A stretch of DNA of 64,000 nt from Actinomycetota bacterium (lineage in GTDB: Bacteria > Actinomycetota > Acidimicrobiia > IMCC26256 > PALSA-555). This document shows, piece by piece, positions 2,940-64,000 of the stretch. A program made the position numbers and the translations under genes. The stretch spans positions 1,294 through 65,293 of the forward strand of contig PLJD01000054.1 of the NCBI GenBank assembly GCA_003140175.1, given 5' to 3'. Under the pieces are notes generated by a model. That model saw only the letters and a list, made by a program, of their open reading frames with translations, searched no databases and had not been told where the DNA came from. Numbering within the stretch: position 1 is the first letter of the stretch; each line of letters begins with the position of its first letter.

Positions 2940-3353
2940 ATGAATTCAAACGCCAAATCCCGTGAGGAAGTTCTCGGAACTGTCCGCGACCGGCTCCGCT
3001 CGAAAGACGACGTGCTTGCTGTCCTACCGTTCGCGTCGACACCCAAGCGACCAAGCGGACCCGACGGCACGACACGCGAAGGGATCTACCCGTCGTATCG
3101 CCGCTATCGGCCGCTCGTTCTCACCGATCGGCGGCTGTTCGTGCTCGACGCCGGCCGCACTCCTCATCCGCGTCGTGGAGTGCTCGCCGAGTTCTCGCTC
3201 AAGGACGTCCAGGTCGTGGAGGTAATCCCGGGCCGGTTCAACCAGACCCGCGTCCTCCTCGACCTCGCCGGGGTCGGGACCGTGCCGTTCGACGTTGGCG
3301 GCTATGAGGTCGACGATCTCGCGAGCCTCCGCGAGGCGCTCGAACGTCCATAG
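2940..3353 (+). CDS. Hypothetical protein (possible bacterial PH-like fold)
   Basis: ATG at 2940 with GGGAGG about 12 nt upstream; 137 aa. A ..RPLVLTDRRLFVLD..EFSLKDVQVVEV.. pattern is the only weak clue to a family. Confidence 0.45.
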   Translation: MNSNAKSREEVLGTVRDRLRSKDDVLAVLPFASTPKRPSGPDGTTREGIYPSYRRYRPLVLTDRRLFVLDAGRTPHPRRGVLAEFSLKDVQVVEVIPGRFNQTRVLLDLAGVGTVPFDVGGYEVDDLASLREALERP

Positions 3354-3571: not shown

Positions 3572-3643
3572 GGGCGCTTAGCTCAGCGGGAGAGCGCTGC
3601 CTTCACACGGCAGAGGCCGCAGGTTCGAAACCTGCAGCGCCCA
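3572..3643 (+). tRNA. tRNA-Val (anticodon CAC)
   Basis: Cloverleaf read by eye: acceptor GGGCGCT/AGCGCCC, D arm GCTC..GAGC, anticodon arm CTGCC-TTCACAC-GGCAG, variable AGGCC, T arm GCAGG-TTCGAAA-CCTGC, discriminator A. CCA is not encoded. Confidence 0.9.
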
Positions 3644-3720
3644 CACAAAGGCGCAGGTCAACAGCCTGCGCCTTCGCCGCGCCCGAACGCCATCCCTCGC
3701 GTCCCAGAAAGATCCCAGAA

Positions 3721-4926: not shown

Positions 4927-5120
4927 GCTGGGACCCACCGGCGGCGTGCGTAGCGCACCTCGGCAAGTTCTCCCCGATCGATCATCGCGGTGACGGTCTT
5001 GCGGTTGACGCGCAGAATGGCCGCGACCTCGTCGATCGAGAACGCAACGACTCCGCCGTCGAAGAGGGCGGCGTCGGCGAGGCTGGGTCGGTCGTGTGCG
5101 AGGAGTCGGAGTTCGGGCAT
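4857..5120 (-). CDS. Excisionase-family / MerR-like HTH DNA-binding protein
   Basis: FSIDEVAAILRVNRKTVTAMIDRGELAEVRYARRRWVPAHVL fits the excisionase-type HTH_17 pattern. The gene is convergent with the integrase and overlaps its 3' end by about 70 nt. Confidence 0.6.
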   Translation of the reverse strand: MPELRLLAHDRPSLADAALFDGGVVAFSIDEVAAILRVNRKTVTAMIDRGELAEVRYARRRWVPAHVLRAFLLLEPPVGPAAEPSRT

Positions 5121-5326
5121 CTATAGGACGCTCCTGCTGGGTTCGGGCTGGCACCGGGCGGGCCGATAGTGCGCCTGGGGCCGCCCAGGTCACCACCCGC
5201 CCGGAGCACCTGGGACCGCCCAGCTGACCACCCGGTTCGGGTCCCAATTGGTGCGTGGCGTCCTGGGAGCAAGCACGCCCCGGTCTGGGTGGTGCGATGC
5301 CCCCCGGTCGCGCACCCACCCGAAGC

Positions 5327-5353
5327 CAGGTCACGCCCGAAGGGCGTGACCTG
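5327..5353. other. Perfect 12-bp stem / 3-nt loop hairpin in the xis-to-sigma intergenic region
   Basis: CAGGTCACGCCC-gaa-GGGCGTGACCTG read directly. There is no T-tract and no upstream gene that it obviously terminates. Confidence 0.4.
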
Positions 5354-5667
5354 CAACCGTGTATACGCCTGGTGGTTGAGATCGTCGGACTTGGAGTGTC
5401 GGCTGGCAGGGTTACGGCAGTCGAAATCTTTGATCCGTCCCTAGGTGTGTTTTTCTCCGTGACTCGGCGTCATGGTCTGCGTTTCTGCACTCGGATCGCT
5501 GCGAACCCGCCTCGGGCTGCACTCCCGGGGACTTGGGCCCCAGATGGGGTGTCCATCTGCCGCGGGCTCGCCATCGACCGATGGCATCATCGAGGGATTC
5601 TCACGCGATCCAAGCCGGGACCCATTGGTCGACGCCAGGCGATGTTGTCACGCCAGTCGGCTGTGCC

Positions 5668-6642
5668 ATGACGAGGCACGATCCTCCGCCGCTAGCGCGC
5701 CTACGACGGGGCGAGCAACTGAGGGAGTACGCGGACTTCGTGAAGCGTGCGCTGCGAGCCGCGATGCGCAAGCGGCCGCACCCCGAGGGCCGGGCCTGGA
5801 CCGTGGGGGACGTCGAAGATCTCCTTCAGGACTTCTTCGAGAAGGGGAGCCATACCCACATCTTTGCCCGCTCCGCCGACGACGGTGCGCTCAGACTCCA
5901 GACGATTGTCGCTGCGCGCAACATGGTGATCGATGAACAACGAAAGTCTGACCGGGGGAAGCTGCATCGCCGACTGATCGAGATCCTGCACGTCGACTTC
6001 GACGAAGGCCCCGCCGGTTGGTGGCGAGAGAGAGGCACGTCGGAAGGCGACACTTGGGGAGGGCGGGACGCGGACCTCGTGACCGCGGCATGGGAAAGGA
6101 ACGTGCATCTTGTCTATTGGAGCCCCGAGGCGAAGCGAGATGGCCAACTCGCCGACCGCGGCCCGCTGGTGGAGGTGCTGACTGCCGTCTGCCGGCGGGC
6201 GGCCGGGGCGGTCGACATCGGAACCCTCGTGTACGTCGTCGCACGCAGGTTCAACCTGGGCCAATTGCCGCGTATCGAGTCACTCGACGTCCCCGCTCAC
6301 CGGGCAGAGGACGCCGAGGGACCTGCCCCGACCAGGGCCGACAACTCGGCGGACGCGGCAGCGGGCGACCCGGCCCTCGTGGCGCTCGCCGAGGAGATCT
6401 GGACAACCCAGCTCGACGAACGAGAGCGGATACTGGTCCCGTATTTGGCGTCTGGGGGTCGAACCGTCGAAGGGGAACTCGATATCGGGTTGCGGAAGTC
6501 GGCGGCCCACGACGCCTTGGAGCGCTTGAAGGCGAAGATGAGGCTGTTTCTAAGCGATCTCACCATCGACGAGCAGTCGGCTGTGCTCGTTTGCTTGCTC
6601 CAGCGCGTTCCTCGGGGCACGGTCCGACAAGGCGTGTCATGA
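5668..6642 (+). CDS. Divergent sigma-70/ECF-like protein with a long insertion between a region-2-like and a region-4-like segment
   Basis: ATG at 5668. The N-terminal segment ..VEDLLQDFFEK..LRLQTIVAARNMVIDEQRK.. resembles sigma region 2. The C-terminal segment LDERERILVPYLASGG..GLRKSAAHDALERLKAKM resembles the region 4 HTH. A ZAS-type anti-sigma gene follows. Confidence 0.4.
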   Translation: MTRHDPPPLARLRRGEQLREYADFVKRALRAAMRKRPHPEGRAWTVGDVEDLLQDFFEKGSHTHIFARSADDGALRLQTIVAARNMVIDEQRKSDRGKLHRRLIEILHVDFDEGPAGWWRERGTSEGDTWGGRDADLVTAAWERNVHLVYWSPEAKRDGQLADRGPLVEVLTAVCRRAAGAVDIGTLVYVVARRFNLGQLPRIESLDVPAHRAEDAEGPAPTRADNSADAAAGDPALVALAEEIWTTQLDERERILVPYLASGGRTVEGELDIGLRKSAAHDALERLKAKMRLFLSDLTIDEQSAVLVCLLQRVPRGTVRQGVS

Positions 6643-6700
6643 CAGGCGGACAGGTTCAGCCGGTGGTCCGTTCGCACGGGAAAGAGAGGAGGCGATTGCT

Positions 6701-7726
6701 ATGACGTCGTTTGAGCACCCAGACGAGCTCGCGCTATCCGACTGGGTCGACGGTCGGCTCGAGGAAGGCGAGTCGATGCGAATTGCCGACCATCTCACGG
6801 GCTGTGGCCTGTGTCAGCGCGAGATCGATCGCGAACGACACGATCTGCCTTTGACTGATGATCGATCGTTCGAGCCTGAGATCCCCATCGAATTCGCGAA
6901 CGCATTCGCGTCCGAGCCGCCCGCCCCGGAGCGGGGACAGGTCTGGCAGTTGCTCTGGGACAGCGCGGCTGAGCTCGTTGTGCTCGAAGAGACATCGCCG
7001 GACTCTGTGCGCGCGATCCCCCTTGAGCCCGATCTTGAATTAGGGGACGAGAGCGTTGTGGTGACGCCCAAGCTCGAGGTGTTGGGCTCGGCCATGGCGC
7101 TGTGGACGAGTCTGGTACGCGACGTCCCGCGCAGGGCGCTGAACGTCTGCTTCGGCTCGGTGCCAGTCCACGTTTTGGAAAGGGTCGACGACGTGCGGTC
7201 GGGCAAGAGAGCAGGACTGGGTGCACCGATCACGGCCGTGTTCGACGAGCGAGCGCAATTGCGGGTGTCCATCTCGCAGCGCCTCGACTTGCTCGCAGCC
7301 GCTGTATGGGGGCCAGGTGTGGACAATCCACCGTCCGACACCCTCGCCGATGTCGCTCGAAGCCGCGACCTTACGCCGTCGAGGATCGCTACGGTGCTCA
7401 AGATTCAACCTGGAGACGCGCGCGCCATCCTGAGCGGTTCCCGATCTATGGACGACGATGAGCGCGATGCCTTCGCGATCCTCGTCGGGATGTCGCCGAG
7501 CGATATCGACCTCTATCGCCCGAAGGTCGATCCGGAACTCGCTCTCGCGCTCGACAGGCCGAAATACCGTTCCCGACTGCGTGAGCGTGCAGAAGCCGAT
7601 GGGCGTTCCGAGGCGAACTACCGCTATTGGGTCGCTACTCACGGACTGGCGCGCGCGGCGCGCTCGGCGCGGACCACTAGCATCGACTGGGATCAGCTCA
7701 TCGAGGACTTCCTCAATGCCCGGTAG
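6701..7726 (+). CDS. Anti-sigma-like protein: N-terminal zf-HC2 (HxxxCxxC, ZAS) motif fused to a C-terminal Xre-like HTH
   Basis: H31-L-T-G-C35-G-L-C38 (nt 6791-6814) sits within LSDWVDGRLEEGESMRIADHLTGCGLCQRE. The C-terminal LADVARSRDLTPSRIATVLKIQPGDARAILSGSRSMDDDERDAFAILVGMSPSDI fits an Xre-type HTH. The 3' end overlaps the next gene by 11 nt. Confidence 0.55.
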   Translation: MTSFEHPDELALSDWVDGRLEEGESMRIADHLTGCGLCQREIDRERHDLPLTDDRSFEPEIPIEFANAFASEPPAPERGQVWQLLWDSAAELVVLEETSPDSVRAIPLEPDLELGDESVVVTPKLEVLGSAMALWTSLVRDVPRRALNVCFGSVPVHVLERVDDVRSGKRAGLGAPITAVFDERAQLRVSISQRLDLLAAAVWGPGVDNPPSDTLADVARSRDLTPSRIATVLKIQPGDARAILSGSRSMDDDERDAFAILVGMSPSDIDLYRPKVDPELALALDRPKYRSRLRERAEADGRSEANYRYWVATHGLARAARSARTTSIDWDQLIEDFLNAR

Positions 7727-8723
7727 CTACGACCAGGCGCGCCAACACGCTGAGCGCTTGGTCGCATCCATCTGCGATGACGAGCTCGAACTCTTGCGTG
7801 ACGAGCCGATCGAGGCGATCTCGGTGCTGTTTGAGGTGCCCGTCGACGTTCGCTCATCCGTCGGCAGCGGCTCCGACTGTTCAGTGGCTGGTTCGTATCG
7901 AGCAGAGCCGACGCCGCACATCACTATCGCCTCATTCCCCAGCGCGGGCCGCACCCTCTTCACCACGCTTCATGAGCTCGGCCATCACCTCTGTCGCCTC
8001 GACGGGGATATTCAGGACTGGTGCTTCGCGTGCGGCGATCCTCGCGCCGAAGAGCACGTCGCTGATGCGTTCGCTGCCGAGGCGCTGCTACCCGCCGAGC
8101 TCGTCAACGCGCGCATAGGTCCACGCGGCCCAACCGCTGCGGCCGTCGGCGACCTGTTCGGGGAGTCGAACGCGAGTCGTGAAGCGTGCTGCGTCCGTGC
8201 TGCACAGCGGCTGCTTGGCGCCGGCGCCGTGCTCGTCGCCCGCGGCCAGATCATCCAGTTCGCAGCGCAGCGCGCACTGCCCTTCTTTATCGCACGAGAG
8301 CTCGACCAGGGCCCTGACGGTCTCTTCGGTGAGCTGGCCCATGGTGGGACTGCGCGGACGGACGATCTGCGCATCCGCTTCCGCTCCGGGAACCTGAGTT
8401 CACCGCTGTTCGCCGATGCCACGGTGGTCGGGAACTACACCTTCGCCGTGCTGGTCGAGCACACCCTCCCGTGGGGTGGGCTCTCGATCCGGGCCGCCGA
8501 CGATGGCCCCATCGGCGGGGAGGTCGACTGCCAGTACTGCGACTTCGTCTTCAGCGACGTGTTCGCGCCGCCGTGCCGTCGGTGTGGGGATCGACCGTGC
8601 CCGAAATGTCGGCGCTGCGGCTGTGAGCCAAAGAGAGCGCCAGTCCGTCGCTGCACGTCCTGCTTCCTGGAGCTGCCGCGAGCGACTCCCGCCGACGTCC
8701 AGCTCTGCGAAACCTGCCGATAA
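7716..8723 (+). CDS. ImmA/IrrE-family (Peptidase_M78-like) metalloprotease with a C-terminal multi-zinc-ribbon tail
   Basis: ATG at 7716, in frame with track ORF 7458..8723. HELGH (HExxH) lies at nt 7971-7985. The tail carries six CxxC pairs: CQYC, CRRC, CPKC, CRRC, CTSC, CETC (about 8530-8720). Confidence 0.7.
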   Translation: MPGSYDQARQHAERLVASICDDELELLRDEPIEAISVLFEVPVDVRSSVGSGSDCSVAGSYRAEPTPHITIASFPSAGRTLFTTLHELGHHLCRLDGDIQDWCFACGDPRAEEHVADAFAAEALLPAELVNARIGPRGPTAAAVGDLFGESNASREACCVRAAQRLLGAGAVLVARGQIIQFAAQRALPFFIARELDQGPDGLFGELAHGGTARTDDLRIRFRSGNLSSPLFADATVVGNYTFAVLVEHTLPWGGLSIRAADDGPIGGEVDCQYCDFVFSDVFAPPCRRCGDRPCPKCRRCGCEPKRAPVRRCTSCFLELPRATPADVQLCETCR

Positions 8724-8800
8724 TCGACCGGACAGGATGGCGTGGTCTGCCGTTCAGGTGGGGTGTGAACGGATCCAGCCCCCCAGAAGGAGCCACCCCC

Positions 8801-9790
8801 ATGGACGTGCCCGACGCCTTCGACGTCCTCGACGAGAACCTCAAGCTCGACCCCGACGAGAGGGTCGCGGCACAGGACCGGCATGCCGAGATCACCGAGA
8901 CCCTCGTCTCTGCCGGCATCGCCAGCGGGTCCTTCCTGCAAGGGTCCTTCGCCCGCAAGACCATGTTGCCGCCCCTGCACGACATCGACAAGATCATCAT
9001 CCTGACCGAGGCCTACCGCGGTCAGCACCCCGACCGCGTCATGGGCGCGATCCAGGACGCGGTCGCCGCCGTGTGCTCGCCGGTGACCTTCGACCGCAGC
9101 AAGCACGCTGTGAAGATCGATATCGCTGACGACCCGTTCCTTTTCGACTGCGTTCCCGCGTTCGAGTCTGACGGCGAGGATGACGACGTACTGATCGCGA
9201 ACCGTGAGGCCCCGGCGGCGGTCGATCAGTGGACCCGCTCGAACCCCCGCGAGCTCGCCCGTCGGATCACGGAGCGTAACCAAGCAACGAACGGACGCTT
9301 CATCCACCAGGTGCGCATGGCCAAGCAGGCCGTCCGAGAGTTGCTCGGCGACAGTCTCCCAAGCCTCCACGTCGAATCGATCGCCTACATCGCGATCGAG
9401 ACCGTGCTCGAGCACCCCGACGCGATCGCGAAGTTCTTCGAAGTCGGCGCGGAACTCCTCGGCGGCGAGTACTTCGAACCCACCGGCGTCGACCAGATCT
9501 CGGATCGCCTCGACACCGCGATCGCGGACGAGGCAAAGCTCGCGTTCACCAACGCTGCTAAGCGCGCACACGAGGCGATCGATCTCGCGGCGGCCGGTGA
9601 TCACAACGAGGCCATCCGTGTGTGGGCGACGATGTTCGGGGACGTATTTCCACCGGCCCCCCCGCAGAGCGCGAACTCGGCGGTCGAGAAGTTGACACGC
9701 GGCGGCAGCGTCACCTCCGCGGCCGCCGTGAGCGCGACCCGCGCCGGGCGAACCCCGGCCCCGACGACACGGTCGTGGCGCTTGGCATGA
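8801..9790 (+). CDS. CD-NTase / SMODS-like nucleotidyltransferase (candidate cyclic-oligonucleotide synthase)
   Basis: ATG at 8801 lies 8 nt after AGAAGGAG. Pol-beta NTase signature: G48-S49 (LQGSFARKT), D61-x-D63 (HDIDKIIIL, nt 8981-8989) and a third Asp at D116 (FDCVPAF). A downstream W..SNP...NGRF...VRMAKQ helical region resembles CD-NTases. Confidence 0.6.
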   Translation: MDVPDAFDVLDENLKLDPDERVAAQDRHAEITETLVSAGIASGSFLQGSFARKTMLPPLHDIDKIIILTEAYRGQHPDRVMGAIQDAVAAVCSPVTFDRSKHAVKIDIADDPFLFDCVPAFESDGEDDDVLIANREAPAAVDQWTRSNPRELARRITERNQATNGRFIHQVRMAKQAVRELLGDSLPSLHVESIAYIAIETVLEHPDAIAKFFEVGAELLGGEYFEPTGVDQISDRLDTAIADEAKLAFTNAAKRAHEAIDLAAAGDHNEAIRVWATMFGDVFPPAPPQSANSAVEKLTRGGSVTSAAAVSATRAGRTPAPTTRSWRLA

Positions 9791-10314
9791 ACTCAGCCGC
9801 CCCCACCGAGAAGACCTGGACGTCGCCGCGTGCCGTCATTGACGGTCCGGAGGAGGTCGTTGCGTTCCTGATGAGGACCGACCTCGTGTTCGGAGTTGAC
9901 CGAATCGATGTCCCGCTCGCGGAGCCTTCATGCGTCGTTTTCTGGCTGACCATGACGCCGCTTCCGGCGGCCGCCGCCGAGGGCTACGCCGAGGAGCGAG
10001 TGAGCATTGCGATCTGGTCGCACGGCCGCATCATCGCGGTGCCGCTGGACTCGACGGGCCGCACCTGGCACCACCGGTACGGGGGACTGTTCAAAGAGCT
10101 CTGCCTCTTCGACCCCGCCGACCCTCGGCCGCTGCGCTGGAACTGGAACGATGGGCTCGCCGCCTACGTGATGATCGTCTACAAGCACCTCTTGTCCGAG
10201 GAGTACGCACGTCGCAACGGCGGACGCTGGCCGTGCGAGGACTCCCCCCACGGTTTTGGCCCGCACCCCATCCGCTCACCCGCGATGCAGACCGCAGTGC
10301 AGAGGGTCGCATGA
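9787..10314 (+). CDS. Small E2 (ubiquitin-conjugating)-like protein, candidate Cap2-short analogue
   Basis: The ATG overlaps the upstream TGA (ATGA at 9787-9790). RTWHHRYGGLFKELCLFDP..RWNWNDGLAAYVMIVYKHLL mimics the E2 HPN..G.iCl..W....i....i..ll layout, with the candidate catalytic residue C106 (nt 10102-10104). Pattern-based only. Confidence 0.4.
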   Translation: MNSAAPTEKTWTSPRAVIDGPEEVVAFLMRTDLVFGVDRIDVPLAEPSCVVFWLTMTPLPAAAAEGYAEERVSIAIWSHGRIIAVPLDSTGRTWHHRYGGLFKELCLFDPADPRPLRWNWNDGLAAYVMIVYKHLLSEEYARRNGGRWPCEDSPHGFGPHPIRSPAMQTAVQRVA

Positions 10315-10907
10315 CGGTGCTCGCCGCGTCCGATCCGAGCCTTTGGCCTGCAGTCATAGGGCTAATCGGAGTCGCCGTAGGCGGCGTGCTCACCTGGGTG
10401 CTCGGCCGACGTGGCGAGGCCGTCGATCGCCGCCGCGATGGTTACGCCGCCGCGATGACCACCTTGGTCGCGTACACGGAATACCCGTTCCGTATTCGGC
10501 GGCGCACCGGCGACGATCTCGATGCGCTCGCGGCCCTCGCCAGCACTGGACACGACCTCCAGCAGGAGCTCAGATGCCACGAAGCATGGATCGCCGCCGA
10601 GAGCAGCCGGGTCGCGGCAGTCTACGGCGAAGCGCGCCGCGGTCTGGCCACGACGCTCGGTGTCGCATGCAACCAGGCCTGGGCGAGCGAGCCGATCATG
10701 ACCGCGGCGGGCATGAACCTCGCTGGTTGGGGGCCCGACCCCGAGAGTGTCCGGGGGCACCTGGCGCGATTTGAGAGCGCTCTCGCATGTCGCTTCGGAT
10801 GGCGGCGAGCATTCAGCACCATTGGGATCTTGATCAAAGTGCCGCGCATACCCGCAATCGCGGAGATGTACACCCCGGAAGTACCCGGGCAGGCAACGGA
10901 GGAATGA
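10311..10907 (+). CDS. Single-pass membrane protein of unrecognised family (candidate effector)
   Basis: ATGA overlap at 10311-10314. The N-terminal hydrophobic helix LWPAVIGLIGVAVGGVLTWVLG is followed by about 160 aa of predicted helical soluble region with no motif I recognise. Confidence 0.5.
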   Translation: MTVLAASDPSLWPAVIGLIGVAVGGVLTWVLGRRGEAVDRRRDGYAAAMTTLVAYTEYPFRIRRRTGDDLDALAALASTGHDLQQELRCHEAWIAAESSRVAAVYGEARRGLATTLGVACNQAWASEPIMTAAGMNLAGWGPDPESVRGHLARFESALACRFGWRRAFSTIGILIKVPRIPAIAEMYTPEVPGQATEE

Positions 10908-12184: not shown

Positions 12185-12346
12185 TGCCAACCGATCCTGC
12201 CCGCGATTCCCACAACTTGCCGGTGCGGTGGGATCCTTCCATTTCGACGAAGCCGACGATATGTTCGCCACGACAACCAAATGCCCCCGGCGCCGGCGGT
12301 AACCGACCCGGGGGCGTGGCCAGCACCTACTTAGGAGGTACTAGCA

Positions 12347-12589
12347 ATGACGGACCCTACGCGTCCAACCCCCGACACGCCCTCGGACCCCAGCGTCCCC
12401 GATGCCCGGGAGATCCCCCTGGCCCGGGACCTCACCGACTGCGTGCTTAGCTTCGTCCACGACCGGGTCACCCCGGTCGCGGAGTGGGTCGCCTGGACCG
12501 GCGGCGACCCCGGCCTGGTCCTGATCCTCGTCGCGGAGACGCTGCGCTCGATCGCCGACGGCCTCGAGCCCGACAACGTCGCCGCCTAA
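12347..12589 (+). CDS. Hypothetical protein
   Basis: ATG preceded by AGGAGG (..cttaggaggtactagcaATG); 80 aa with no recognisable family. Confidence 0.4.
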   Translation: MTDPTRPTPDTPSDPSVPDAREIPLARDLTDCVLSFVHDRVTPVAEWVAWTGGDPGLVLILVAETLRSIADGLEPDNVAA

Positions 12590-12750
12590 GCGCTCGCGTT
12601 GCCCGTCACAGGAGCTCCAGGAGGTGTCGGGCGGCGCCTCACGACGGGCAGCGGCTCGCCCTTCATTTGCCCATCAAACCTGGCGATACTCAACCGCACG
12701 GGATAACCAGACGACACGAAGACCGAAAGTGAGCAGCCTCAACGCAACTC

Positions 12751-12781
12751 GTTGACTCCATCGCGACGTGATGGAGTCAAC
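12751..12781. terminator. Perfect 12-bp inverted repeat (GTTGACTCCATC-n7-GATGGAGTCAAC) between convergent genes
   Basis: Read directly. It lies about 80 nt beyond the stop of the minus-strand phosphotransferase gene and about 160 nt beyond the plus-strand ORF. No T-tract is present. Confidence 0.3.
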
Positions 12782-15180: not shown

Positions 15181-15224
15181 CTCCAACGCTCCGCCCGTGG
15201 GGCCAGGGTCCGAGGCGGCCGCAT

Positions 15225-15281
15225 CCTCCTTATGGGGCCACTCAGGTCCATGCCAAGTCCGTGGAAGGACGAAAGACGTTG
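15225..15281 (+). repeat. Host repeat R, left arm, copy A (ends at the IS insertion point)
   Basis: CCTCCTTATGGGGCCACTCAGGTCCATGCCAAGTCCGTGGAAGGACGAAAGACGTTG aligns with 59167-59234 and with 62201-62239. It contains two 11-mer units (CAGGTCCATGC, CAAGTCCGTGG). Confidence 0.7.
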
Positions 15282-15542
15282 GGTGGGCTCAAGGGGTCCG
15301 CGCAATTCCTGGGCGAGTTGACGATGCTCGTTGACTCGACCGGGGAGGGTGGGGATGGCGCAGCTCAGTGTGGAGCAGCGGGAGTTGGCTCGAAGGCTGA
15401 GGGCACGGGGATGGCGGCTGCGGGAGATCGGCGCCCAGGTCGGCTGTTCGTTTGACACGGTTCGGCTGGTGGTGGGGGGTGCTCGGGTTCGGCCTGGGCG
15501 TCCTGATGTGTGGTGGCCGGCGCCGGGTCGTTTGAGGTTGGC
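15282..15542 (+). mobile_element. IS30-family element, 5' stub (IRL plus about the first 78 transposase codons)
   Basis: It starts with the same IRL, GGTGGGCTCAAGGGGTCCGCGCAA, and is near-identical to 59235 to about 59495. Similarity stops abruptly at about 15542. Confidence 0.8.
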
Positions 15543-16115
15543 GGAAGGTATGCGCGTGGTGTTGATCGGAAAGACGCCGAGCTGTTGAGATTCTGCTACC
15601 ACCCAGACGCGATCGACGCGCACTGGTCCTTCATCGGCAACGGGCAGGAGTTCGCCGATGAGATCCTGAAGCCCCATCAGATGAGGGCGATCCCCGTTTT
15701 CAAGCACTTCATCACGAACATTCTGATCGAGCTCGACGGCGATCGAGCGTTCTGCGAGAGCTCCTACCTCTTCACCCAGTCGTTGCAACTCGACGATCGA
15801 CGGACCGCCGCCATGACCGCCGAGGGCCGATACCTCGACGTCTTCGAACGCCGCGACGGTGAATGGCGCATCTTCCATCGGCTCCTCGTGAACGAGGCCG
15901 GCGCGTGGTCGCTCCCGATTCCGATGCCGTACGCCGCAGGCGGTGCACCGGTCGCTGACGAACGTCAACGTGTCGGAGCGTTCCCCGATGACCCCGTGTA
16001 TCGAGGTTTCGCGGTGTCGGACATCCTCCCAGAGGAGTTCCGCACGACCGAGGACACCTGGGCGGGAGCTCGAGAGCATTTGCGACAACTCGTCTCTCAC
16101 GACGAAGACCAATAG
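15510..16115 (+). CDS. NTF2/SnoaL_4-like protein whose native 5' end has been replaced by IS sequence
   Basis: Family-like sequence starts at RYARGVDRKDAELLRFCYHPDAIDAH, immediately after the IS junction. The usual roughly 15-20 aa N-terminal helix is missing. The listed start lies inside the IS stub. Confidence 0.55.
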   Translation: MVAGAGSFEVGGRYARGVDRKDAELLRFCYHPDAIDAHWSFIGNGQEFADEILKPHQMRAIPVFKHFITNILIELDGDRAFCESSYLFTQSLQLDDRRTAAMTAEGRYLDVFERRDGEWRIFHRLLVNEAGAWSLPIPMPYAAGGAPVADERQRVGAFPDDPVYRGFAVSDILPEEFRTTEDTWAGAREHLRQLVSHDEDQ

Positions 16116-58970: not shown

Positions 58971-59166
58971 TCGACCGGAAACGAACTTGCACCCAATCCC
59001 TGGGGCTCCTGGCGAGGCCGGCGATCGAACCCCACCGCCCGCCCTGAGGCCCCAGGCCGGGCGGCCAGAGAACAGCTTCCCTGGAGCGGCGGCCCGATGA
59101 GATCCCCGCCCCGGCCCGCGCTTGGCCTCGCGGACCGCTGGCCGGCCCGATTGGGCGCAACCGCAA

Positions 59167-59234
59167 CCTCCTGATGGGGCCGCTCAAGTCCGTGCCAAGT
59201 CCGTGCCAAGTCCGTGGAATGTCGAGAAACGTTG
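59167..59234 (+). repeat. Host repeat R, left arm, copy B (three tandem 11-mers, ends in TTG)
   Basis: CAAGTCCGTGC CAAGTCCGTGC CAAGTCCGTGG at 59185-59217. It aligns with 15225-15281 and 62201-62239, which have two units each. Confidence 0.7.
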
Positions 59235-60460
59235 GGTGGGCTCAAGGGGTCCGCGCAATTCCTGGGCGAGTTGACGATGCTCGTTGACTCGATTGGGGAG
59301 GGTGTGGATGGCACAGCTCACGGTGGAACAGCGGGAGCTGGCTCGAAGGCTGAGGGCACGGGGATGGCGGCTGCGGGAGATCGGCGCCCAGGTCGGCTGT
59401 TCGTTTGACACGGTTCGGCTGGTGGTGGGCGGTGCTCGGGTTCGACCCGGTCGTCCCGATGTGTGGTCGCCCGCCCCGGGCCACTTGACGTTGGCCGATC
59501 GGGAGGAGATCAGTCTCGGTCTGCACGGCGCTGAAACCTTCACGGCGATCGCGGCCCGGGTGGGCCGTGCGGTGTCGAGCGTGTCTCGAGAGGTGGCCGC
59601 CAACGGCGGGCGGGGCGGATATCGGGCATGGCGAGCGCATCAGCGGGCCCGGGAACGCACGCGGCGGCCCAAGCCCTCGAAGTTCGCCGACCGGCGGCTG
59701 GTGACCCAGGTGCAGCGGTGGCTGAAGGAGTGGTGGTCACCGGAGGCGATCGCTCGCCGCTTGCGCATCGAGTTCCCGGACGATCCGATGATGTGGGTGT
59801 CGCACGAGACCATTTACCAGTCGCTGTTCGTGCAGGGCCGCGGCGAGTTGCGACGGGAGCTGACCCGGTGTTTGCGGACCGGGCGGGCCCAGCGTCGACC
59901 TCGAGCCCGGGTGGAGCGCCGAGGCCGGCTTCCCGGCATGGTGATGATCAGCGAACGTCCCGCCGAGGTCGCCGACCGGGCGATGCCGGGCCACTGGGAA
60001 GGCGACCTGATCCTCGGCAAGGGCAACCGATCCGCGGTCGGGACGCTCGTCGAGCGGTCGACTCGCTACCTGTTGCTGCTGCACCTGCCGGAGGGTCGAG
60101 AGGCCGACAAAGTCGATGCGGCGATGCGAGCCGCGATCGCCAGGCTGCCCGGCGAGCTGTTCCGCAGCATCACCTGGGACCAAGGCAAGGAGATGGCCTT
60201 CCACGCCGACTTCACGATCGACACCGGCATCCAGATCTACTTCTGTGACCCCGCAAGCCCCTGGCAGCGAGGCTCGAACGAGAACACCAACGGCCTGCTC
60301 CGCCAATACATGCCCAAGGGAACCGACCTATCCGAACTGACCCAACAAGACCTCGACCGGTTCGCCCGCAGTCTCAACAACCGACCCCGCAAGACCCTCG
60401 ACTATATGAAACCATCAGAGCGACTCGCCGAGCTCCTTGCGCACACCAGTTGAGCCCACC
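59235..60460 (+). mobile_element. Intact IS30-family insertion sequence (1226 bp)
   Basis: IRL is GGTGGGCTCAAGGGGTCCGCGCAA (59235-59258). The reverse complement of 60437-60460 is GGTGGGCTCAACTGGTGTGCGCAA, 20/24 identical by my count. TTG flanks both ends (59232-59234, 60461-60463). A single transposase ORF fills the element. Confidence 0.85.
59308..60453 (+). CDS. IS30-family DDE transposase
   Basis: ATG at 59308 after GGGGAGGG. N-terminal HTH (LREIGAQVGCSFDTVRLV), a second HTH (FTAIAARVGRAVSSVSREV) and catalytic HWEGDLI....ITWDQGKEM....PWQRGSNENTNGLLRQY, typical of IS30. The stop lies inside IRR. Confidence 0.9.
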   Translation: MAQLTVEQRELARRLRARGWRLREIGAQVGCSFDTVRLVVGGARVRPGRPDVWSPAPGHLTLADREEISLGLHGAETFTAIAARVGRAVSSVSREVAANGGRGGYRAWRAHQRARERTRRPKPSKFADRRLVTQVQRWLKEWWSPEAIARRLRIEFPDDPMMWVSHETIYQSLFVQGRGELRRELTRCLRTGRAQRRPRARVERRGRLPGMVMISERPAEVADRAMPGHWEGDLILGKGNRSAVGTLVERSTRYLLLLHLPEGREADKVDAAMRAAIARLPGELFRSITWDQGKEMAFHADFTIDTGIQIYFCDPASPWQRGSNENTNGLLRQYMPKGTDLSELTQQDLDRFARSLNNRPRKTLDYMKPSERLAELLAHTS

Positions 60461-60548
60461 TTGCAAACCAATGACAAACAACGACAAACATCACCGCAGG
60501 TCAGAGCCGCTTTCGAGCCTCTGACCAGCCCTCTCGCGACCACCTGAC
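60461..60548 (+). repeat. Host repeat R, right arm, copy B (contains an 8-bp-stem hairpin at 60499-60526)
   Basis: TTGCAAACCAATGACAAACAACGACAAACA..GGTCAGAGccgctttcgagcCTCTGACC.. aligns with 62237 to about 62330. Confidence 0.7.
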
Positions 60549-60598
60549 TCGCCCTTACAAGGCGGAGGACGGGGGTTCGAGCCCCTCAGCGCTCACCA
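60549..60598 (+). pseudogene. tRNA-Val(UAC)-like 3' fragment (anticodon arm to CCA; no 5' acceptor/D arm)
   Basis: TCGCC-CTTACAA-GGCGG (anticodon TAC), variable AGGAC, T arm GGGGG-TTCGAGC-CCCTC, acceptor 3' strand AGCGCTC, discriminator A, then CCA. The 26 nt upstream contain no GAGCGCT or D-arm. Confidence 0.4.
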
Positions 60599-60839
60599 GC
60601 AAAGGAAACATTCTGCGGGGATGTGACGTACCCGGGGAGGGCTCGGCTCAGCTCGAAGTCCGCCAGGAGTCCGTGCGCGTTCCAAATGCTCCAACGATCG
60701 CCCTTAGGCGGCGAGTCGTGGCGCGAGTCCTGCCGAGAGGTGCGCACCGATCATCCCGCTTGCAGAGGGATGGTCTGAGCGAGGTGCGCATGTCATTCGG
60801 TGATTTGGGGGTGGCGTGACGCCCGACCGGGTACACGGG

Positions 60840-61157
60840 ACGCGGCAACGGCCCGCGCTTGCAGCGCGGACGTCCGCTGGGCAAGAGGCGGTAACTGTCC
60901 GGGCGGTGGACTGACCGAGCGTGCGACGAAGCACCCCACCCGGGCGGAACGCTGCTACGGTTCGAGGAGGTGGCGGGGGCGTCGGGCTCGCGACGACCAG
61001 CTCGGCGGGCGGCGGTGGTTCATCGTTCGTCACGCCCGGCACGGCTGTGCTCTCGACCGGCCCCAACCACGGTGCCGGATCGGTCATCGTCAGCTACGAC
61101 CCAAGCACGGATTCCTGCCCGACACCGATCGTCGTCACACCGAGGTTCACCGGGTAA
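60840..61157 (+). pseudogene. Frameshifted C-terminal fragment of a glycine-rich (ALK/LTK-type Gly-rich-domain-like) protein
   Basis: ..GGGGGVGLATTSSAGGGGSSFVTPGTAVLSTGPNHGAGSVIVSYD.. ends like the C-termini of Gly-rich secreted proteins. An upstream ..SADVR..GG.CPGGG.. piece lies in another frame, with a TGA at 60912. Confidence 0.3.
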
Positions 61158-61481
61158 GCACTGAGCGGGGCGCGTGACGGCAGACCAATAGGTCATTGTC
61201 CGCTCGTTTGGACGGCCGCCGATTTGGCTCGAACGTGTGGTGTTGGATGATCTCGGCGTGCTCTCCGCGTGCCCATCGCAAGGTCAGACTGCGTTCAGCC
61301 GCCTGCGAGAAAAGCGAGCGATCCCGTCGCCCTTGCAGGTGGATGGCTAGAGGCGTAAGAGAGCGCGATCGAACCCGACGGGCCGCGGTGAGGGGCTTGG
61401 GTCAGAGTAGGTTTCGAGACTGTGTACGAACAGTGCGCCATTAGCGGCTGAGCGGTTTGGCCGCGCCACGAGCCGGCCGGG

Positions 61482-61736
61482 TCAACCAAAGCGCTGTTGG
61501 GCGGCTTGCTTTGAGACGCCGAGCGCCGCGCCGATGGCCGCCCAGGAATAGTCGGCGGCTCGAGCGGCTCGGACCGTCTCGCGGAGGTGTGCGTCAGCCG
61601 AGGCAGCGGTTTCGAGCGCCGCTTCGATGCGACGGAGCTCAGCTCCGCTTCGCCATTGGCGCTGCGAAGGGTCGGTGTGGGCGAGTCTGTCAGCGACGTG
61701 TTCGGCTCGCTGGCGGCTTGTGGTCGTGCGTGGCAT
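61482..61736 (-). CDS. Small HTH protein (antitoxin-like partner)
   Basis: ATG at 61736; 84 aa. The C-terminal ADYSWAAIGAALGVSKQAAQQRFG is a sigma-region-4/HTH_23-like motif. Confidence 0.5.
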   Translation of the reverse strand: MPRTTTSRQRAEHVADRLAHTDPSQRQWRSGAELRRIEAALETAASADAHLRETVRAARAADYSWAAIGAALGVSKQAAQQRFG

Positions 61737-61987
61737 CACGGTCCTTCCGGTGGGAACTTGAAGGGTCGGGCTGGTCGCATCGCGTGAATGATGGCTGGCC
61801 CGTCTTGGGTGTCGAGCACGCCGACTTCGATCAGGTTGCCGGCCCGGTCGGGGCCGAGGAAGAGGGTGACGTCGTCGTCTTCGTCGTTGAGTGCCATCCA
61901 GTTGCGCAGCGCATGGCGTATGTCGGCATCGTGGACCTGGTGACGTCGTGCCGTCTGCCAGATCGGCGCGTCGACGAGTCCAATGTG
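61736..61987 (-). CDS. Small toxin-like protein lacking a canonical start codon (possible pseudogene)
   Basis: My translation gives ..GLVDAPIWQTARRHQVHDADIRHALRNWMALNDEDDDVTLFLGPDRAGNLIEVGVLDTQDGPAIIHAMRPARPFKF..*. The layout resembles small actinobacterial toxin-type proteins. The open frame starts right after a TGA, and the first ATG/GTG/TTG is 30 codons in. Its stop overlaps the downstream ATG. Confidence 0.35.
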   Translation of the reverse strand, partial: HIGLVDAPIWQTARRHQVHDADIRHALRNWMALNDEDDDVTLFLGPDRAGNLIEVGVLDTQDGPAIIHAMRPARPFKFPPEGP

Positions 61988-62200
61988 TCAACCCTACCTT
62001 GACGCTGACAGGTGGTCAAGCAACCCTTGACCTCCAGATCGGCTGTCCTGGCCTGGGGGCTCGATCCTGGCTGGTGTCGGCGCCTGGTCTGGAGCTGAGC
62101 ATGCGGTACACCGCGGCCTCGTGCGCTGGCCTCAGGACTGGTATCGCCACGGCGGATGGCCTGCCGTTCGCGGTGTGGCACTCCATCGCGAACGCTTCGC

Positions 62201-62352
62201 CAAGTCCGTGCCAGGTCCGTGGAATGACGAGAAACGTTGCGCACCAACGACAAACAACGACAAACGTCTGCGCAGGTCAGAGCAGGTTTCGAGCCCGTGA
62301 CCAGCACCTTCGCGGGCCCCTGAATCGCCCTTTGAGAGCGGTGTTCGCTTCA
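62201..62352 (+). repeat. Host repeat R, copy C: uninterrupted (unoccupied IS30 target site)
   Basis: Left arm (two 11-mers) and right arm are contiguous. The junction ..GAAACGTTGCGCACCAACGAC.. holds a single TTG (62237-62239) inside the palindrome CGTTG-cgcac-CAACG. Confidence 0.7.
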
Positions 62353-62524: not shown

Positions 62525-64000
62525 TCAGCGTCCTCGGCGGGGGAGGTGTGGGCGAACTCGGATGACGACCCGCACCATTTCCTCTGCTAGCTCATCGGTT
62601 GGAGCGCGAGGATTGTTGTAGACCACGTACTCCTTGGCGACGAGTGTGGCGAGATAGTCGAGGAGCGCGGACTCGTCGTCCTTGACGAGCAGGTAGTCAG
62701 TGTGACGCTCGTTGTATAGGACGATGTTCGAGTCAGGGTCGTATCGGCTGCGGCCAGCGCCGGGTGCGGGATCAGGTTCGAGGCGAGGGAGGGACCGGTT
62801 ACGGGTCTGGTCAGGGCGAGCCGAGTTGGGCGCTTGGTCAGGAAGAGGTTCGGCAAGATCTGGCGCTCGTTCCTCGAGATCGTTGAGCGGAGGTAGTCCT
62901 TCTGCGGGAGCAGTGTCGCCGTTTGAGCCCGGCGCCGATGGTGGCGCGACGGGTTCGAGAAGTGCTCCATCGCCCGGGAGAGCACCGAGCGGGGTGCGCA
63001 TCGGGTTGTCGAGATCGCTGAGCTCGTCGAGGACGCGCTTGAAGATCCGCTGGATCGTGTCGGCGAGTCGGTCGGCCTGCCGAGCGTCGACGTCACGGTT
63101 GACGCGCTCCAGCGCCTTGGTCACCGTAGGTTCGACCGCCCGGAGTGCGTCGACGAAGATCCCGAAAGCGCTGTCGAAGAGGACGCCGCGGCGTCCCGAG
63201 GCCTGTTGAAGCCCATCGAAGACGACATGCCCAGAGATTTGATCGCTGGACCACGGCGGATTGCTGAAGGGATCGAGTTCACTGAGATCATCCAGGATGG
63301 TGGTCCCGGCTCGCCCAACGACCGCGACCCGCCGCTTTCGCTCGTCGCGGGGTGCGACATAGAACCCAAACTCGATACGACCCCAGAGCGTCTGGTGCGC
63401 CGGGATCGCGACCCGAATGCCCTCGGGCTCCTCGGGCGTGACCAATTCGCTGCGCCTACCCTCAACGACTTCGATGGTGTAGTCGCCCCGGGCCAGCGCT
63501 GTACCTCGCCGTCGACGGAGATAGTCAACGACCTTGCGTTGCGTCAGCACGCGTAAGACCTCGGGATCGAGGTCGCTGAGATACACCGTCGTTCCGGACT
63601 CCGGGCGGGCCCGCCGTCGCTCCGGTTCGAGCAACCCGACCGCTCGGCCTCGTTCGAGTCGCAGCGTGTACGTCTGGTTCTCACCGACTGCGCGAGACAC
63701 GATCTCGCAGCGTCCGGCGAGCTGCTGGAAACCCAACAGGCCGATCGCTTTCTCGCCGAGAGTCCGCTCGTCTCCGGATTTGGCTGACTCGAAGAGGTTG
63801 CGGGCGATCTCACGGAGCCGGTCTGGATTCATGCCACGGCCGAGGTCGTCGATGGCGACAACTGGTCGCTTGCCTTTGCGTCGGAGCACGATGCGGATCC
63901 GGGCGCCGCGCTGACCGCTCTGCGCGTATTCATCAGCTGCGTTCGACACGAATTCGTTGAGCGCATCCTTCGGGTCGCGGTACACCTGTCCGGTGACGAG
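62525..64000 (-). CDS. GHKL-superfamily (HATPase_c_3 / MORC-like) ATP-binding protein; 5' end lies outside the window
   Basis: The frame is open to the window edge (..LVTGQVYRDPKDALNEFVSNAADEYA..). The N-box-like NEFVSNAADE and G1-box-like DDLGRGM are typical of the GHKL Bergerat fold. The C-terminal half is long and low-complexity. Confidence 0.7.
   Translation of the reverse strand, partial: LVTGQVYRDPKDALNEFVSNAADEYAQSGQRGARIRIVLRRKGKRPVVAIDDLGRGMNPDRLREIARNLFESAKSGDERTLGEKAIGLLGFQQLAGRCEIVSRAVGENQTYTLRLERGRAVGLLEPERRRARPESGTTVYLSDLDPEVLRVLTQRKVVDYLRRRRGTALARGDYTIEVVEGRRSELVTPEEPEGIRVAIPAHQTLWGRIEFGFYVAPRDERKRRVAVVGRAGTTILDDLSELDPFSNPPWSSDQISGHVVFDGLQQASGRRGVLFDSAFGIFVDALRAVEPTVTKALERVNRDVDARQADRLADTIQRIFKRVLDELSDLDNPMRTPLGALPGDGALLEPVAPPSAPGSNGDTAPAEGLPPLNDLEERAPDLAEPLPDQAPNSARPDQTRNRSLPRLEPDPAPGAGRSRYDPDSNIVLYNERHTDYLLVKDDESALLDYLATLVAKEYVVYNNPRAPTDELAEEMVRVVIRVRPHLPRRGR

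What the first reader, a model, noticed from the sequence alone, without database searches (positions are those of the whole stretch)
59167..60598. Intact IS30-family element inserted at a defined palindromic site inside a host repeat
The element is sharply delimited by 24-bp imperfect IRs (20/24 by my count) at 59235-59258 and 60437-60460. A TTG duplication lies on both sides, and IRR overlaps the transposase stop.

Both flanks are themselves repeated elsewhere: the left arm at 15225-15281, and both arms at 62201-62352. The truncated copy at 15282 sits at exactly the same position after ..ACGTTG.

IS30-type elements are known to prefer symmetric hot-spot sequences. Here the hot spot appears to be embedded in a dispersed repeat of about 150-190 bp. 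Copy B has three tandem CAAGTCCGTGC/G 11-mers in the left arm, where the other copies have two.
Basis: partly seen in the sequence, partly recalled or inferred. Interest (0 to 1): 0.6.

Follow-up and report, generated by a model that had tools for sequence, protein, structure and literature searches.

The report
IS30 element in tRNA-island attachment-site repeat
An intact IS30-family jumping gene has repeatedly landed at one exact position in a ~150-bp repeat that looks like the attachment-site arm of genomic islands that integrate into valine tRNA genes; this is ordinary IS30 hot-spot behaviour with an unusual target.

Summary
Window 59235-60460 is an intact 1226-bp IS30-family element: 20/24 terminal inverted repeats, a 3-bp TTG duplication, and a 381-aa HTH+DD(33)E transposase.

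It splits a repeat, R. An empty copy lies at 62194-62347. A third copy at 15219-15281 is broken at the same nucleotide by a 264-bp IS fragment.

Near-identical IS copies (88-96% nt) from other metagenomes resolve, by matching duplications, into six insertion sites. Three are in three different R copies, at the same position and orientation. Three are in unrelated DNA. Six other R copies are empty. So R is an independent unit carrying a real hot spot, and it does not travel with the IS.

R is probably not a plain host repeat. In copy B it is followed by the 3' half of a tRNA-Val(TAC). In another contig a diverged R precedes a 48-nt tRNA-Val(GAC) 3' half and an integrase gene. Intact relatives of that integrase abut intact tRNA-Val(GAC). 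The 11-mer pair recurs about 60 nt 3' of the tRNA, including in such an integrated element. R therefore looks like the P arm of an attP-like site.

The palindrome idea is weakly supported. The verdict is a new member of a known kind, of moderate interest.

The parts
59235..60460 (+). Intact IS30-family insertion sequence, 1226 bp
   Evidence: Full-length copies 88-96% identical occur in eight other contigs with the same ends. The ends are delimited by IRs and a TSD.
59235..59258 (+). Left terminal inverted repeat (IRL), GGTGGGCTCAAGGGGTCCGCGCAA
   Evidence: 20/24 match to the reverse complement of IRR. It fits the clade consensus GGCGGnTTCAAGGGGTCnGCGCAA.
60437..60460 (+). Right terminal inverted repeat (IRR); contains the transposase stop codon at 60451-60453
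59232..59234 (.). Target-site duplication TTG, left copy (right copy at 60461-60463)
   Evidence: 3-bp TSDs are also seen at non-R sites of the same IS: GTA in L091 and GGC in L096.
59308..60453 (+). Transposase CDS, 381 aa (ATG start; an in-frame TTG lies at 59284)
   Evidence: Pfam HTH_38 and rve. NCBIfam NF033563 IS30 equivalog at 297.8 bits against a cut-off of 80. An exact protein is on record. 33 residues separate the second D (TWDQG) from E (SNEN), counted from the translation.
59161..59234 (+). Repeat R, copy B, left arm, with three tandem 11-mers CAAGTCCGTGC/G at 59185-59217 (proposed arm-type integrase sites)
60464..60548 (+). Repeat R, copy B, right arm (two AAYGACAAAC 10-mers, GGTCAG...TGACCAG segment)
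60549..60598 (+). 3' half of a tRNA-Val(TAC): anticodon arm TCGCC/CTTACAA/GGCGG, variable loop, T arm GGGGG/TTCGAGC/CCCTC, acceptor strand AGCGCTC, discriminator A, CCA. There is no 5' half. Proposed att core.
   Evidence: It matches a real tRNA-Val(TAC) found in one of the loci element by element. BLAST of this stretch hits places of which the one annotated is a tRNA gene. ARAGORN and Rfam find no complete tRNA there.
60657..60675 (+). Second pair of 11-spaced AGTCCGYS motifs, about 60 nt 3' of the tRNA half (proposed P' arm). Similarity to the empty module in L085 runs to about 60747.
   Evidence: The same pair sits at the same offset between an intact tRNA-Val(GAC) and the integrase gene in L100.
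62194..62347 (+). Repeat R, copy C: empty, uninterrupted, and the tRNA-like part is decayed after the anticodon-like hairpin
   Evidence: The identical locus occurs in another sample (L083).
15219..15281 (+). Repeat R, copy A: left arm only
   Evidence: The same flank carries a full-length IS in L094.
15282..15545 (+). 5' fragment (IRL plus the transposase N-terminus) of a second copy of the same IS, truncated by deletion
   Evidence: 92% identical to IS positions 1-264

Best explanation
Window 59235-60460 is an intact copy of an unnamed IS30-family insertion sequence from an uncultured, probably Acidimicrobiia-type, actinobacterium. It inserted with a 3-bp duplication into a ~150-bp sequence, R.

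R is not ordinary host DNA. It is the arm of an attP-like recombination site belonging to integrative elements that target tRNA-Val genes. The proposed layout is:
- a pair or triplet of 11-mers (candidate arm-type integrase sites);
- about 125 bp of spacer;
- a core formed by the 3' half of a tRNA-Val;
- a second 11-mer pair about 60 nt further on.

Such modules are left in the chromosome as relics or junctions of islands that pile up at tRNA-Val genes. This IS species has a hot spot at one fixed nucleotide position of the arm, ACG-YTG-CAAACC, between the 11-mers and the 10-mers, and it has hit at least three different R copies there. The insertion moves the 11-mers 1.2 kb away from the core, so it would disable the site for integrase-mediated recombination.

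Status of each step:
- Shown: the IS anatomy and family, the repeat, the recurrence of insertion at one position, the empty copies, the tRNA halves, and the integrase and 11-mer associations.
- Inferred: that the 11-mers bind integrase, that R is a P arm, and that the hot spot is recognised by the transposase.
For: IS family and anatomy.

Hot spot. The junction inventory of IS copies at least 88% identical pairs by TSD into six sites:
- R copy B (TTG/TTG);
- R copy A (left junction only, TTG);
- a third R copy (L088 left junction and L093 right junction, both CTG);
- three non-R sites (GTA, GAG, GGC).

The R arms differ right up to the junction and differ in the TSD itself, so the hits are independent. 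A profile search breaks every occupied copy at model positions 50-52. Six empty copies exist: window copy C (also seen as L083), L082 R1, L082 R2, L084, L085 and L086.

att nature of R:
- Copy B, L085 and L084 carry a tRNA-Val(TAC) 3' half directly after R.
- L082 R2 is followed by 48 nt identical to positions 26-73 of tRNA-Val(GAC), and then by the stop of a tyrosine integrase gene.
- Three intact homologues of that integrase (60-78% identity) each abut an intact tRNA-Val(GAC).
- The 11-spaced motif pair occurs in 708 kb only in R, at +60 nt from the tRNA half in B and L085, and at +60 nt from the intact tRNA in L100. L100 was retrieved through the integrase alone, not through R.
- There is no covariation support for an RNA apart from the tRNA anticodon hairpin.

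IS30 hot-spot targeting is established behaviour for the family's type element (PMC9333248).
Against: - No cognate integrase or integrase relic lies near copies B or C in the window.
- No attL/attR pair with R at the distal end of an intact element was found. L097 and L100 show no second copy of the tRNA half and no R within 10 kb.
- Integrase binding to the 11-mers is untested.
- The left neighbour of copy B is an ABC-transporter operon, not obvious island DNA.
- All sequences are metagenome contigs. Assemblers can mis-join across a 1.2-kb repeat, so only flank-IS junctions, not whole arrangements, can be trusted.
- Only three R hits and six sites are known.
Confidence: 0.62

Rival explanations
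1. R is a host-encoded dispersed intergenic repeat (REP/MITE-like, or a small RNA or regulatory element). Its adjacency to tRNA halves and to an integrase is incidental.
For: - R copies sit in varied contexts with different flanks on both sides.
- Window copies have no integrase nearby.
- R is more conserved than the tRNA-like tail in copies C, L082 R1 and L086.
Against: - Four of the eight R copies whose 3' side is present (B, L084, L085, L082 R2) are followed in register by a tRNA-Val 3' half starting at the anticodon stem. Two different isoacceptors are represented.
- One copy is followed by an integrase whose homologues are tRNA-Val(GAC)-specific.
- The 11-mer pair recurs in the attL of an element found independently of R.
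- There is no RNA covariation and no Rfam hit.
- The 11-nt copy-number change rules out coding.
- No terminal inverted repeats define a MITE.
Confidence: 0.22
2. The IS did not target R repeatedly. It inserted once, and the R+IS unit was then copied, either by duplication or by gene conversion between R copies using the arms as homology. Alternatively, the apparent extra occupied copies are assembly chimeras.
For: - Several contigs have mismatched TSDs (L088, L093, L094), showing IS-IS recombination or mis-assembly.
- Both occupied copies with a known right arm share CAAACC next to the IS, unlike all the empty copies.
- L087 has flanks identical to the window but an IS 3.8% different, so IS sequence does move between copies or is collapsed by assemblers.
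Against: - The left arms of A, B and L088 differ within the 20 nt next to the junction and upstream of the 11-mers.
- TSDs are TTG in copy B but CTG at both the L088 left junction and the L093 right junction. That requires a separate target with CTG before insertion.
- Flank-IS junctions are short enough to be spanned by reads, so they are not created by mis-joins.
- The A arm is about 80-89% identical to the B arm, while the IS parts are about 92% identical.
Confidence: 0.1
3. The R arms are the outer parts of a larger mobile element that always carries the IS.
For: Left arm plus IS is seen at three places.
Against: - Uninterrupted R copies without any IS exist in six places.
- The IS with clean 3-bp TSDs sits in non-R DNA in L091 and L096.
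- There is no similarity between R and the IS.
Confidence: 0.02

Closest known systems
IS30 (E. coli) and the IS30 family
   Same: - Single HTH+DDE transposase with DD(33)E spacing, filling a ~1.2-kb element.
- 20-30-bp IRs and a 2-3-bp duplication.
- Pronounced preference for particular hot-spot sequences rather than random insertion. IS30's dual specificity for nearly palindromic hot spots and for its own IRs is described in PMC9333248.
- Association with deletions and rearrangements, as in the truncated copy A.
   Different: - 3-bp rather than 2-bp duplication.
- The hot spot is not a 24-bp symmetric consensus; the occupied targets are at best a 6-bp palindrome.
- The hot spot lies in another mobile element's recombination site.
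- No IR-targeting (IR-IR junction) was seen.
- Fewer than 60% of transposase residues are identical to any transposase in the plasmid collection.
Insertion sequences that target repeated extragenic or recombination sites: REP-targeting IS (for example ISPpu9 of the IS110 family, PMC12288879; survey in PMC1525189), the IS1111-attC group, and the res-site-hunting Tn5053/Tn402 family (the last two from my own knowledge)
   Same: A transposable element that repeatedly lands at one position and in one orientation within a short dispersed sequence. In the attC and res cases, that sequence is the site of a site-specific recombinase.
   Different: - Those elements use different transposase families (IS110/DEDD, or TniABQ).
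- Here the targeting is partial (3 of 6 sites).
- There is no evidence that the recombinase bound at the site is needed.
attP/attR sites of tyrosine-integrase elements in tRNA genes (lambda-type arm and core organisation; identity block from the anticodon stem to the tRNA 3' end; tandem accretion of islands or CIMEs) - my own knowledge of the literature
   Same: - A core equal to a tRNA 3' half starting at the anticodon stem.
- Repeated 10-11-mers on both sides at arm-like distances (-130, +60).
- An integrase gene abutting the core in L082, L097, L100 and L101.
- Several modules in tandem, 1.7-1.8 kb apart.
   Different: - No functional pair of att sites or cognate integrase for the window copies.
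- The arm is unusually conserved between elements that use different tRNA-Val isoacceptors.
- Binding and recombination are untested.

Membership tests
IS30 family | Transposase matches the curated IS30-family profile | tested here: met
   NF033563 transpos_IS30 equivalog, 297.8 bits against a cut-off of 80. The IS481, IS21 and IS3 models score far below their cut-offs.
IS30 family | N-terminal HTH plus a DDE (rve) catalytic domain with DD(33)E spacing | tested here: met
   HTH_38 at residues 67-106 and rve at 233-326. 33 residues separate D of TWDQG from E of SNEN, counted on the translation.
IS30 family | One ORF spanning almost the whole ~1.0-1.25-kb element; terminal IRs of 20-30 bp | tested here: met
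   1226 bp, CDS 59308-60453, IRs 20/24
IS30 family | 2-3-bp target duplication | tested here: met
   TTG in the window; GTA in L091; GGC in L096; 3 bp in 26 of 40 related insertions
IS30 family | Copy-out-paste-in transposition through an IR-IR junction (minicircle or dimer) | not testable with these tools
   No IR-IR junction was seen in any locus. This needs reads or an experiment.
IS30 family | Hot-spot target preference | tested here: met
   3 of 6 distinct sites lie at the same nucleotide of three different R copies
IS30 family | Hot spot is a long symmetric (palindromic) consensus, as for IS30 itself | tested here: not met
   Occupied targets read ACG-YTG-CAAACC. The 10-bp palindrome is present only in three of the empty copies. 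The clade shows no symmetric consensus, and only 5 of 40 sites are in strong hairpins.
Tyrosine-integrase attachment site at a tRNA gene (attP/attR) | Core identical to the 3' part of a tRNA, from the anticodon stem to the 3' end | tested here: met
   L082 R2: 48/48 nt identical to tRNA-Val(GAC) of L100 and L101. Window copy B: a complete Val(TAC) 3' half with no 5' half.
Tyrosine-integrase attachment site at a tRNA gene (attP/attR) | Adjacent cognate integrase gene | tested here: inconclusive
   Met for L082/L098, where a frameshifted integrase follows. Homologues abut an intact tRNA-Val(GAC) in three of three cases. Not met for window copies A, B and C.
Tyrosine-integrase attachment site at a tRNA gene (attP/attR) | Repeated arm-type sites on both sides of the core | tested here: inconclusive
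   11-spaced RGTCCGYS pairs lie at about -130 and +60 in B and L085, and at +60 in the attL of L100. There are none elsewhere in 708 kb. Protein binding is not testable here.
Tyrosine-integrase attachment site at a tRNA gene (attP/attR) | A second copy of the core at the other end of an integrated element (attL/attR pair) | tested here: not met
   No second tRNA half and no R within the 10-kb flanks of L097 and L100. The elements may be longer than the flanks held.
REP/MITE-type dispersed repeat | Terminal inverted repeats or a palindromic unit, with own target duplication | tested here: not met
   No terminal IRs bound R in L085 or copy C. Only an imperfect 22-nt inverted match to the core lies at the left edge of L085.
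Structured small RNA / tRNA-like RNA / tmRNA | Conserved secondary structure with covariation, or a match to a known model | tested here: not met
   The RNAalifold covariation term is +1.21, and the only compensated helix is the anticodon hairpin. The fold z-score is -1.5. ARAGORN and Rfam are negative on the reconstructed empty site and the right arm.

The most novel reading that the evidence does not exclude
This IS30-family element may be an 'att hunter'. On this reading its transposase is directed, by sequence or by the bent integrase-bound arm, to the P arm of attP-type sites of tRNA-Val integrative elements. By separating the arm sites from the core it would immobilise islands. This would be analogous to res-site-hunting Tn5053 transposons or to attC-targeting IS1111 elements, but with an IS30 transposase and a tyrosine-integrase att arm as the target. 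A related possibility is that the R-core modules spaced 1.7-1.8 kb apart around small toxin-antitoxin-like gene sets are the recombination sites of an integron-like cassette array at tRNA-Val.
Probability: 0.15. Interest if true: 0.6.

Novelty: new member of a known kind. Interest (0 to 1): 0.38.

Why it matters
The finding gives a concrete, testable example of one mobile element using another's recombination site as its landing pad in an uncultured actinobacterial lineage. If the preference is real and mechanistic, it would be a route by which insertion sequences lock genomic islands in place. The short R sequence would also be a convenient natural target for studying IS30-family target choice.

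It also flags tRNA-Val genes in these genomes as sites where island remnants accumulate: defence genes, toxin-antitoxin genes and att relics. As it stands, the finding is a well-behaved IS30 relative with a hot spot. That is useful for annotation but does not change concepts.

Tried and rejected
1. tmRNA or tRNA-like RNA spanning R plus the tRNA half. Rejected: no 5' acceptor partner exists in any copy, and ARAGORN and Rfam are negative on the spliced empty site and the flanks.
2. Structured sRNA. Rejected: no covariation and a weak fold z-score.
3. Protein-coding R. Rejected: the 11-nt copy-number difference shifts the frame, and translations of the flanks are not conserved.
4. Phage or plasmid origin of R. 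BLAST against the phage and plasmid collections hits only the tRNA-like 50 nt. Three pattern scans of viral contigs gave nothing.
5. R around more distant relatives of the IS. None of 80 loci with 53-78% identical transposases has R.
6. Clade-wide palindrome preference. Only marginal: 5 of 40 sites below the 5th percentile of control folding energies (binomial p about 0.05), and a median site less structured than background. There is no positional consensus except AT-richness and a G at the first duplicated base.
7. The 10-bp palindrome GTTGCGCAAC as the target. It is found only in empty copies.
8. Searches for an attL/attR pair and for integrase relics near B and C. Both negative.
9. GC profile as an island boundary marker. 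Uninformative.
10. Cluster look-up for the organism name. No information.
Full report
**The element**

Window 59235-60460 is a 1226-bp insertion sequence. Its ends, GGTGGGCTCAAGGGGTCCGCGCAA and the reverse complement of TTGCGCACACCAGTTGAGCCCACC, match at 20 of 24 positions. TTG is present on both sides.

One ORF (59308-60453, 381 aa) fills the element and ends inside the right repeat. It has an HTH_38 domain and an rve (DDE) domain. It scores 297.8 bits on NCBI's IS30-family equivalog model, against a cut-off of 80. Counting on the translation gives 33 residues between the second aspartate and the glutamate, which is the family's DD(33)E signature.

The exact protein is encoded on a 249-kb JGI metagenome contig that contains the window. 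The 80 closest transposases among species-representative genomes are 53-78% identical, and most come from Acidimicrobiia-type MAGs. Eight further contigs carry full-length copies 88-96% identical in DNA, with the same ends. The element is therefore an intact member of a young, probably active IS species of the IS30 family.

**The repeat**

Removing the IS and one TTG joins 59161-59234 to 60464 onward into a sequence I call R. R recurs uninterrupted at 62194-62347 (copy C). Its left arm recurs at 15219-15281 (copy A), where a 264-bp 5' fragment of the same IS begins at the same nucleotide.

Copy B has three CAAGTCCGTGC 11-mers and the other copies have two. A degenerate left-arm pattern found five more R copies in public metagenome contigs, all uninterrupted. 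A sixth, more diverged copy lies in one of those contigs (L082 R2).

The conserved core is about 155 nt and contains:
- the 11-mer pair;
- GGAATGTCGAAAAACGTTGCGCAAC;
- two AACGACAAAC 10-mers;
- a GGTCAG...TGACCAG segment;
- a hairpin CGCC-CTTACAA-GGCG.

**Is R a hot spot, or does it travel with the IS?**

The flank-IS junctions of the near-identical copies can be paired by their 3-bp duplications into six insertion sites:
- R copy B (TTG/TTG; also L087);
- R copy A (left junction TTG; also L094);
- a third R copy (L088 left junction ...ACGCTG and L093 right junction CTGCAAACC...);
- three sites in unrelated DNA, with GTA (L091), GAG (L088 right, L089 left) and GGC (L096).

A profile of R breaks every occupied copy at model positions 50-52, and the IS always has the same orientation. 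The three occupied arms differ from one another within the 20 nt next to the junction, upstream of the 11-mers, and in the duplicated triplet itself. They are therefore separate targets, not copies of one event.

Uninterrupted R copies and clean non-R insertions together exclude the idea that the arms belong to a larger element carrying the IS. R thus carries a real but not exclusive hot spot.

Several contigs have non-matching duplications (L088, L093, L094). These are either IS-IS recombination products or assembler mis-joins across the 1.2-kb repeat. Only the junctions themselves are relied on here.

**What R is**

In copy B the 50 nt after R (60549-60598) are the 3' half of a tRNA-Val(TAC): anticodon arm, variable loop, T arm, acceptor strand, discriminator A and CCA. 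This stretch matches a genuine tRNA-Val(TAC) from one of the loci element by element. It is the only part of R that hits phage and plasmid records, and the one annotated hit is a tRNA gene. There is no 5' half, and ARAGORN and Rfam call no gene there. L085 and L084 have the same arrangement.

The decisive locus is L082/L098. There the diverged copy R2 is followed by 48 nt identical to positions 26-73 of tRNA-Val(GAC), and then directly by the stop codon of a frameshifted tyrosine integrase gene. Three intact homologues of that integrase (60-78% identity) each abut an intact tRNA-Val(GAC) in the same geometry. So in L082 the 5' half of the tRNA has been replaced by R. That is the configuration expected for P arm-core-P' arm, meaning an attP or the junction between two elements integrated in tandem.

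A second, independent line of evidence comes from the 11-mers. The 11-spaced motif pair RGTCCGYS-N3-RGTCCGYS occurs in 708 kb of window plus loci only in three kinds of place:
- the R left arms;
- about 60 nt 3' of the tRNA half in copy B (60657-60675) and in L085;
- 60 nt 3' of the intact tRNA-Val(GAC) in L100, between the tRNA and the integrase gene.

L100 was retrieved through the integrase alone, not through R. This is the pattern expected of arm-type integrase sites on both arms.

The similarity between copy B and L085 covers about 330 bp, a typical attP size, and stops on both sides. Copies C, L082 R1 and L086 keep R and the anticodon-like hairpin, but the remainder of the tRNA half is decayed or replaced. 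That fits old relics or secondary-site products.

An RNA function is not supported. The only compensated helix is the tRNA anticodon stem, and the covariation term is unfavourable.

Weak points remain:
- no integrase or integrase relic lies near copies B or C;
- no attL/attR pair with R at the far end of an intact element was found within the 10 kb available;
- protein binding is untested.

I put the att-arm reading at roughly two in three.

**How the targeting might work**

IS30 itself is known for dual specificity, towards nearly palindromic hot spots and towards its own inverted repeats (PMC9333248). A strong site preference in a relative is therefore expected.
- The 10-bp palindrome GTTGCGCAAC is present in three of the six empty copies (L082 R1, L084, L085).
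- The two occupied copies with a known right arm read YTG-CAAACC. This is 2 of 2 against 0 of 6, which is suggestive of sequence choice but rests on tiny numbers.
- Among 40 distinct insertions of related IS, 26 have 3-bp duplications, and there is no symmetric consensus. The flanks are AT-rich for these genomes. Only five sites lie in unusually stable hairpins, while nine are among the least structured 7% of control windows.

The three non-R sites of this IS also have A3 or T3 tracts 2-5 nt from the duplication. The best guess is recognition of a short sequence or shape feature present in the AT-rich centre of the arm. Whether integrase or host bending proteins bound to the arm contribute is open.

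The consequence of the insertion is clearer. It puts 1.2 kb between the 11-mers and the core, which should abolish any arm-core bridging at that site.

**Comparison and verdict**

The element passes every sequence-level test for IS30-family membership. The long symmetric hot-spot consensus of IS30 itself is not reproduced. The situation resembles other cases where transposable elements home in on dispersed repeats or recombination sites (REP-targeting IS, attC-targeting IS1111, res-hunting Tn5053), but with a different transposase family and only partial specificity.

The interpretation needs two corrections: the target is mobile-element att DNA, not a host repeat, and the palindrome is not shown to be the determinant. 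This is a new member of a known kind, of moderate interest.

Noticed in passing
window 3572-10907: An intact tRNA-Val(CAC) (3572-3644) is followed by a tyrosine integrase gene (3721-4926). After that come a zf-HC2 protein, an IrrE/M78-peptidase-like protein and a SMODS nucleotidyltransferase (8765-9790). This looks like a defence island integrated at a second tRNA-Val gene. Its integrase is only about 28-30% identical to the L082/L100 clade. R copy A (15219) could be its distal end, but that could not be shown.
   Followed up: partly
L087 2928-4153 versus window 59235-60460: L087 comes from another sample and has flanks 100% identical to the window over 2927 + 2993 bp. The IS between them differs at 47 of 1226 positions and is 99.6-99.7% identical to the copies in L091, L093 and L094. 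Possible causes are assembler collapse of a multicopy repeat, gene conversion between IS copies, or a second insertion at the same site.
   Followed up: partly
L088, L089, L093, L094: These contigs have left and right flanks of the IS with non-matching duplications: TTG/GTA, GTA/CTG and CTG/GAG. They are either IS-IS recombination products or metagenome mis-assemblies across the IS.
   Followed up: partly
L082 4841-6965 (= L098 1222-3346); window 60599-62193: Two R modules 1.8 kb apart bracket DUF3024 plus a nucleotidyltransferase/HEPN pair in L082. In the window, copies B and C, 1.7 kb apart, bracket an 84-aa HTH-like ORF and a 53-aa ORF (61482-61897, minus strand). The arrangement resembles a cassette array next to an integrase.
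   Followed up: partly
L010, L013, L036, L041, L049, L055, L076 (coordinates): Some related IS30-family copies sit exactly in the centre or at the foot of long, near-perfect palindromes (for example GGGCTTGATCC|GGATCAAGCCC in L049). Four others (L004, L005, L040, L043) lie next to a GGTCAGTTTTCRA / TCGAAAACTGACC motif. This suggests that other species of this clade have their own repeat hot spots.
   Followed up: partly
copy B 60461-60472, L093 1617-1628, versus empty copies (alignment A1): The six bases to the right of the duplicated triplet are CAAACC in both occupied R copies with a known right arm. They are CGCAAC or CGCACC in five empty copies and CGAAAT in the diverged L082 R2. Apart from this stretch, the L093 right arm is identical to the empty L082 R1 over 33 nt.
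   Followed up: partly
L084 (reverse strand) about 690-790, L085 (reverse strand) about 3040-3260, L088 5861-6115, window 12233-12756: A small conserved gene (...WVAWTGGDPxLV...ETLRSIADGL...) lies just upstream of R in L084 and L085. It also occurs 1.7 kb from the IS in L088, and inside the putative tRNA-Val(CAC) island of the window. No Pfam family was tested for it.
   Followed up: no
L085 2888-2909 and 3052-3073: A 22-nt inverted match (77%) links the core (CAAGGCGGAGGACGGGGGTTCG) to the sequence just outside the 11-mers at the left edge of R. A similar CCCCAAGGAnGTGGA motif lies at the left edge in A, B and L084. It may be a second core-type site or it may be chance.
   Followed up: no
window 62525-63985 and L001 14988-15615: To the right of copy C lie a 486-508-aa HATPase_c_3 protein on the minus strand and a VapB/PIN (VapC) pair. 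These are typical island cargo, with no integrase.
   Followed up: no
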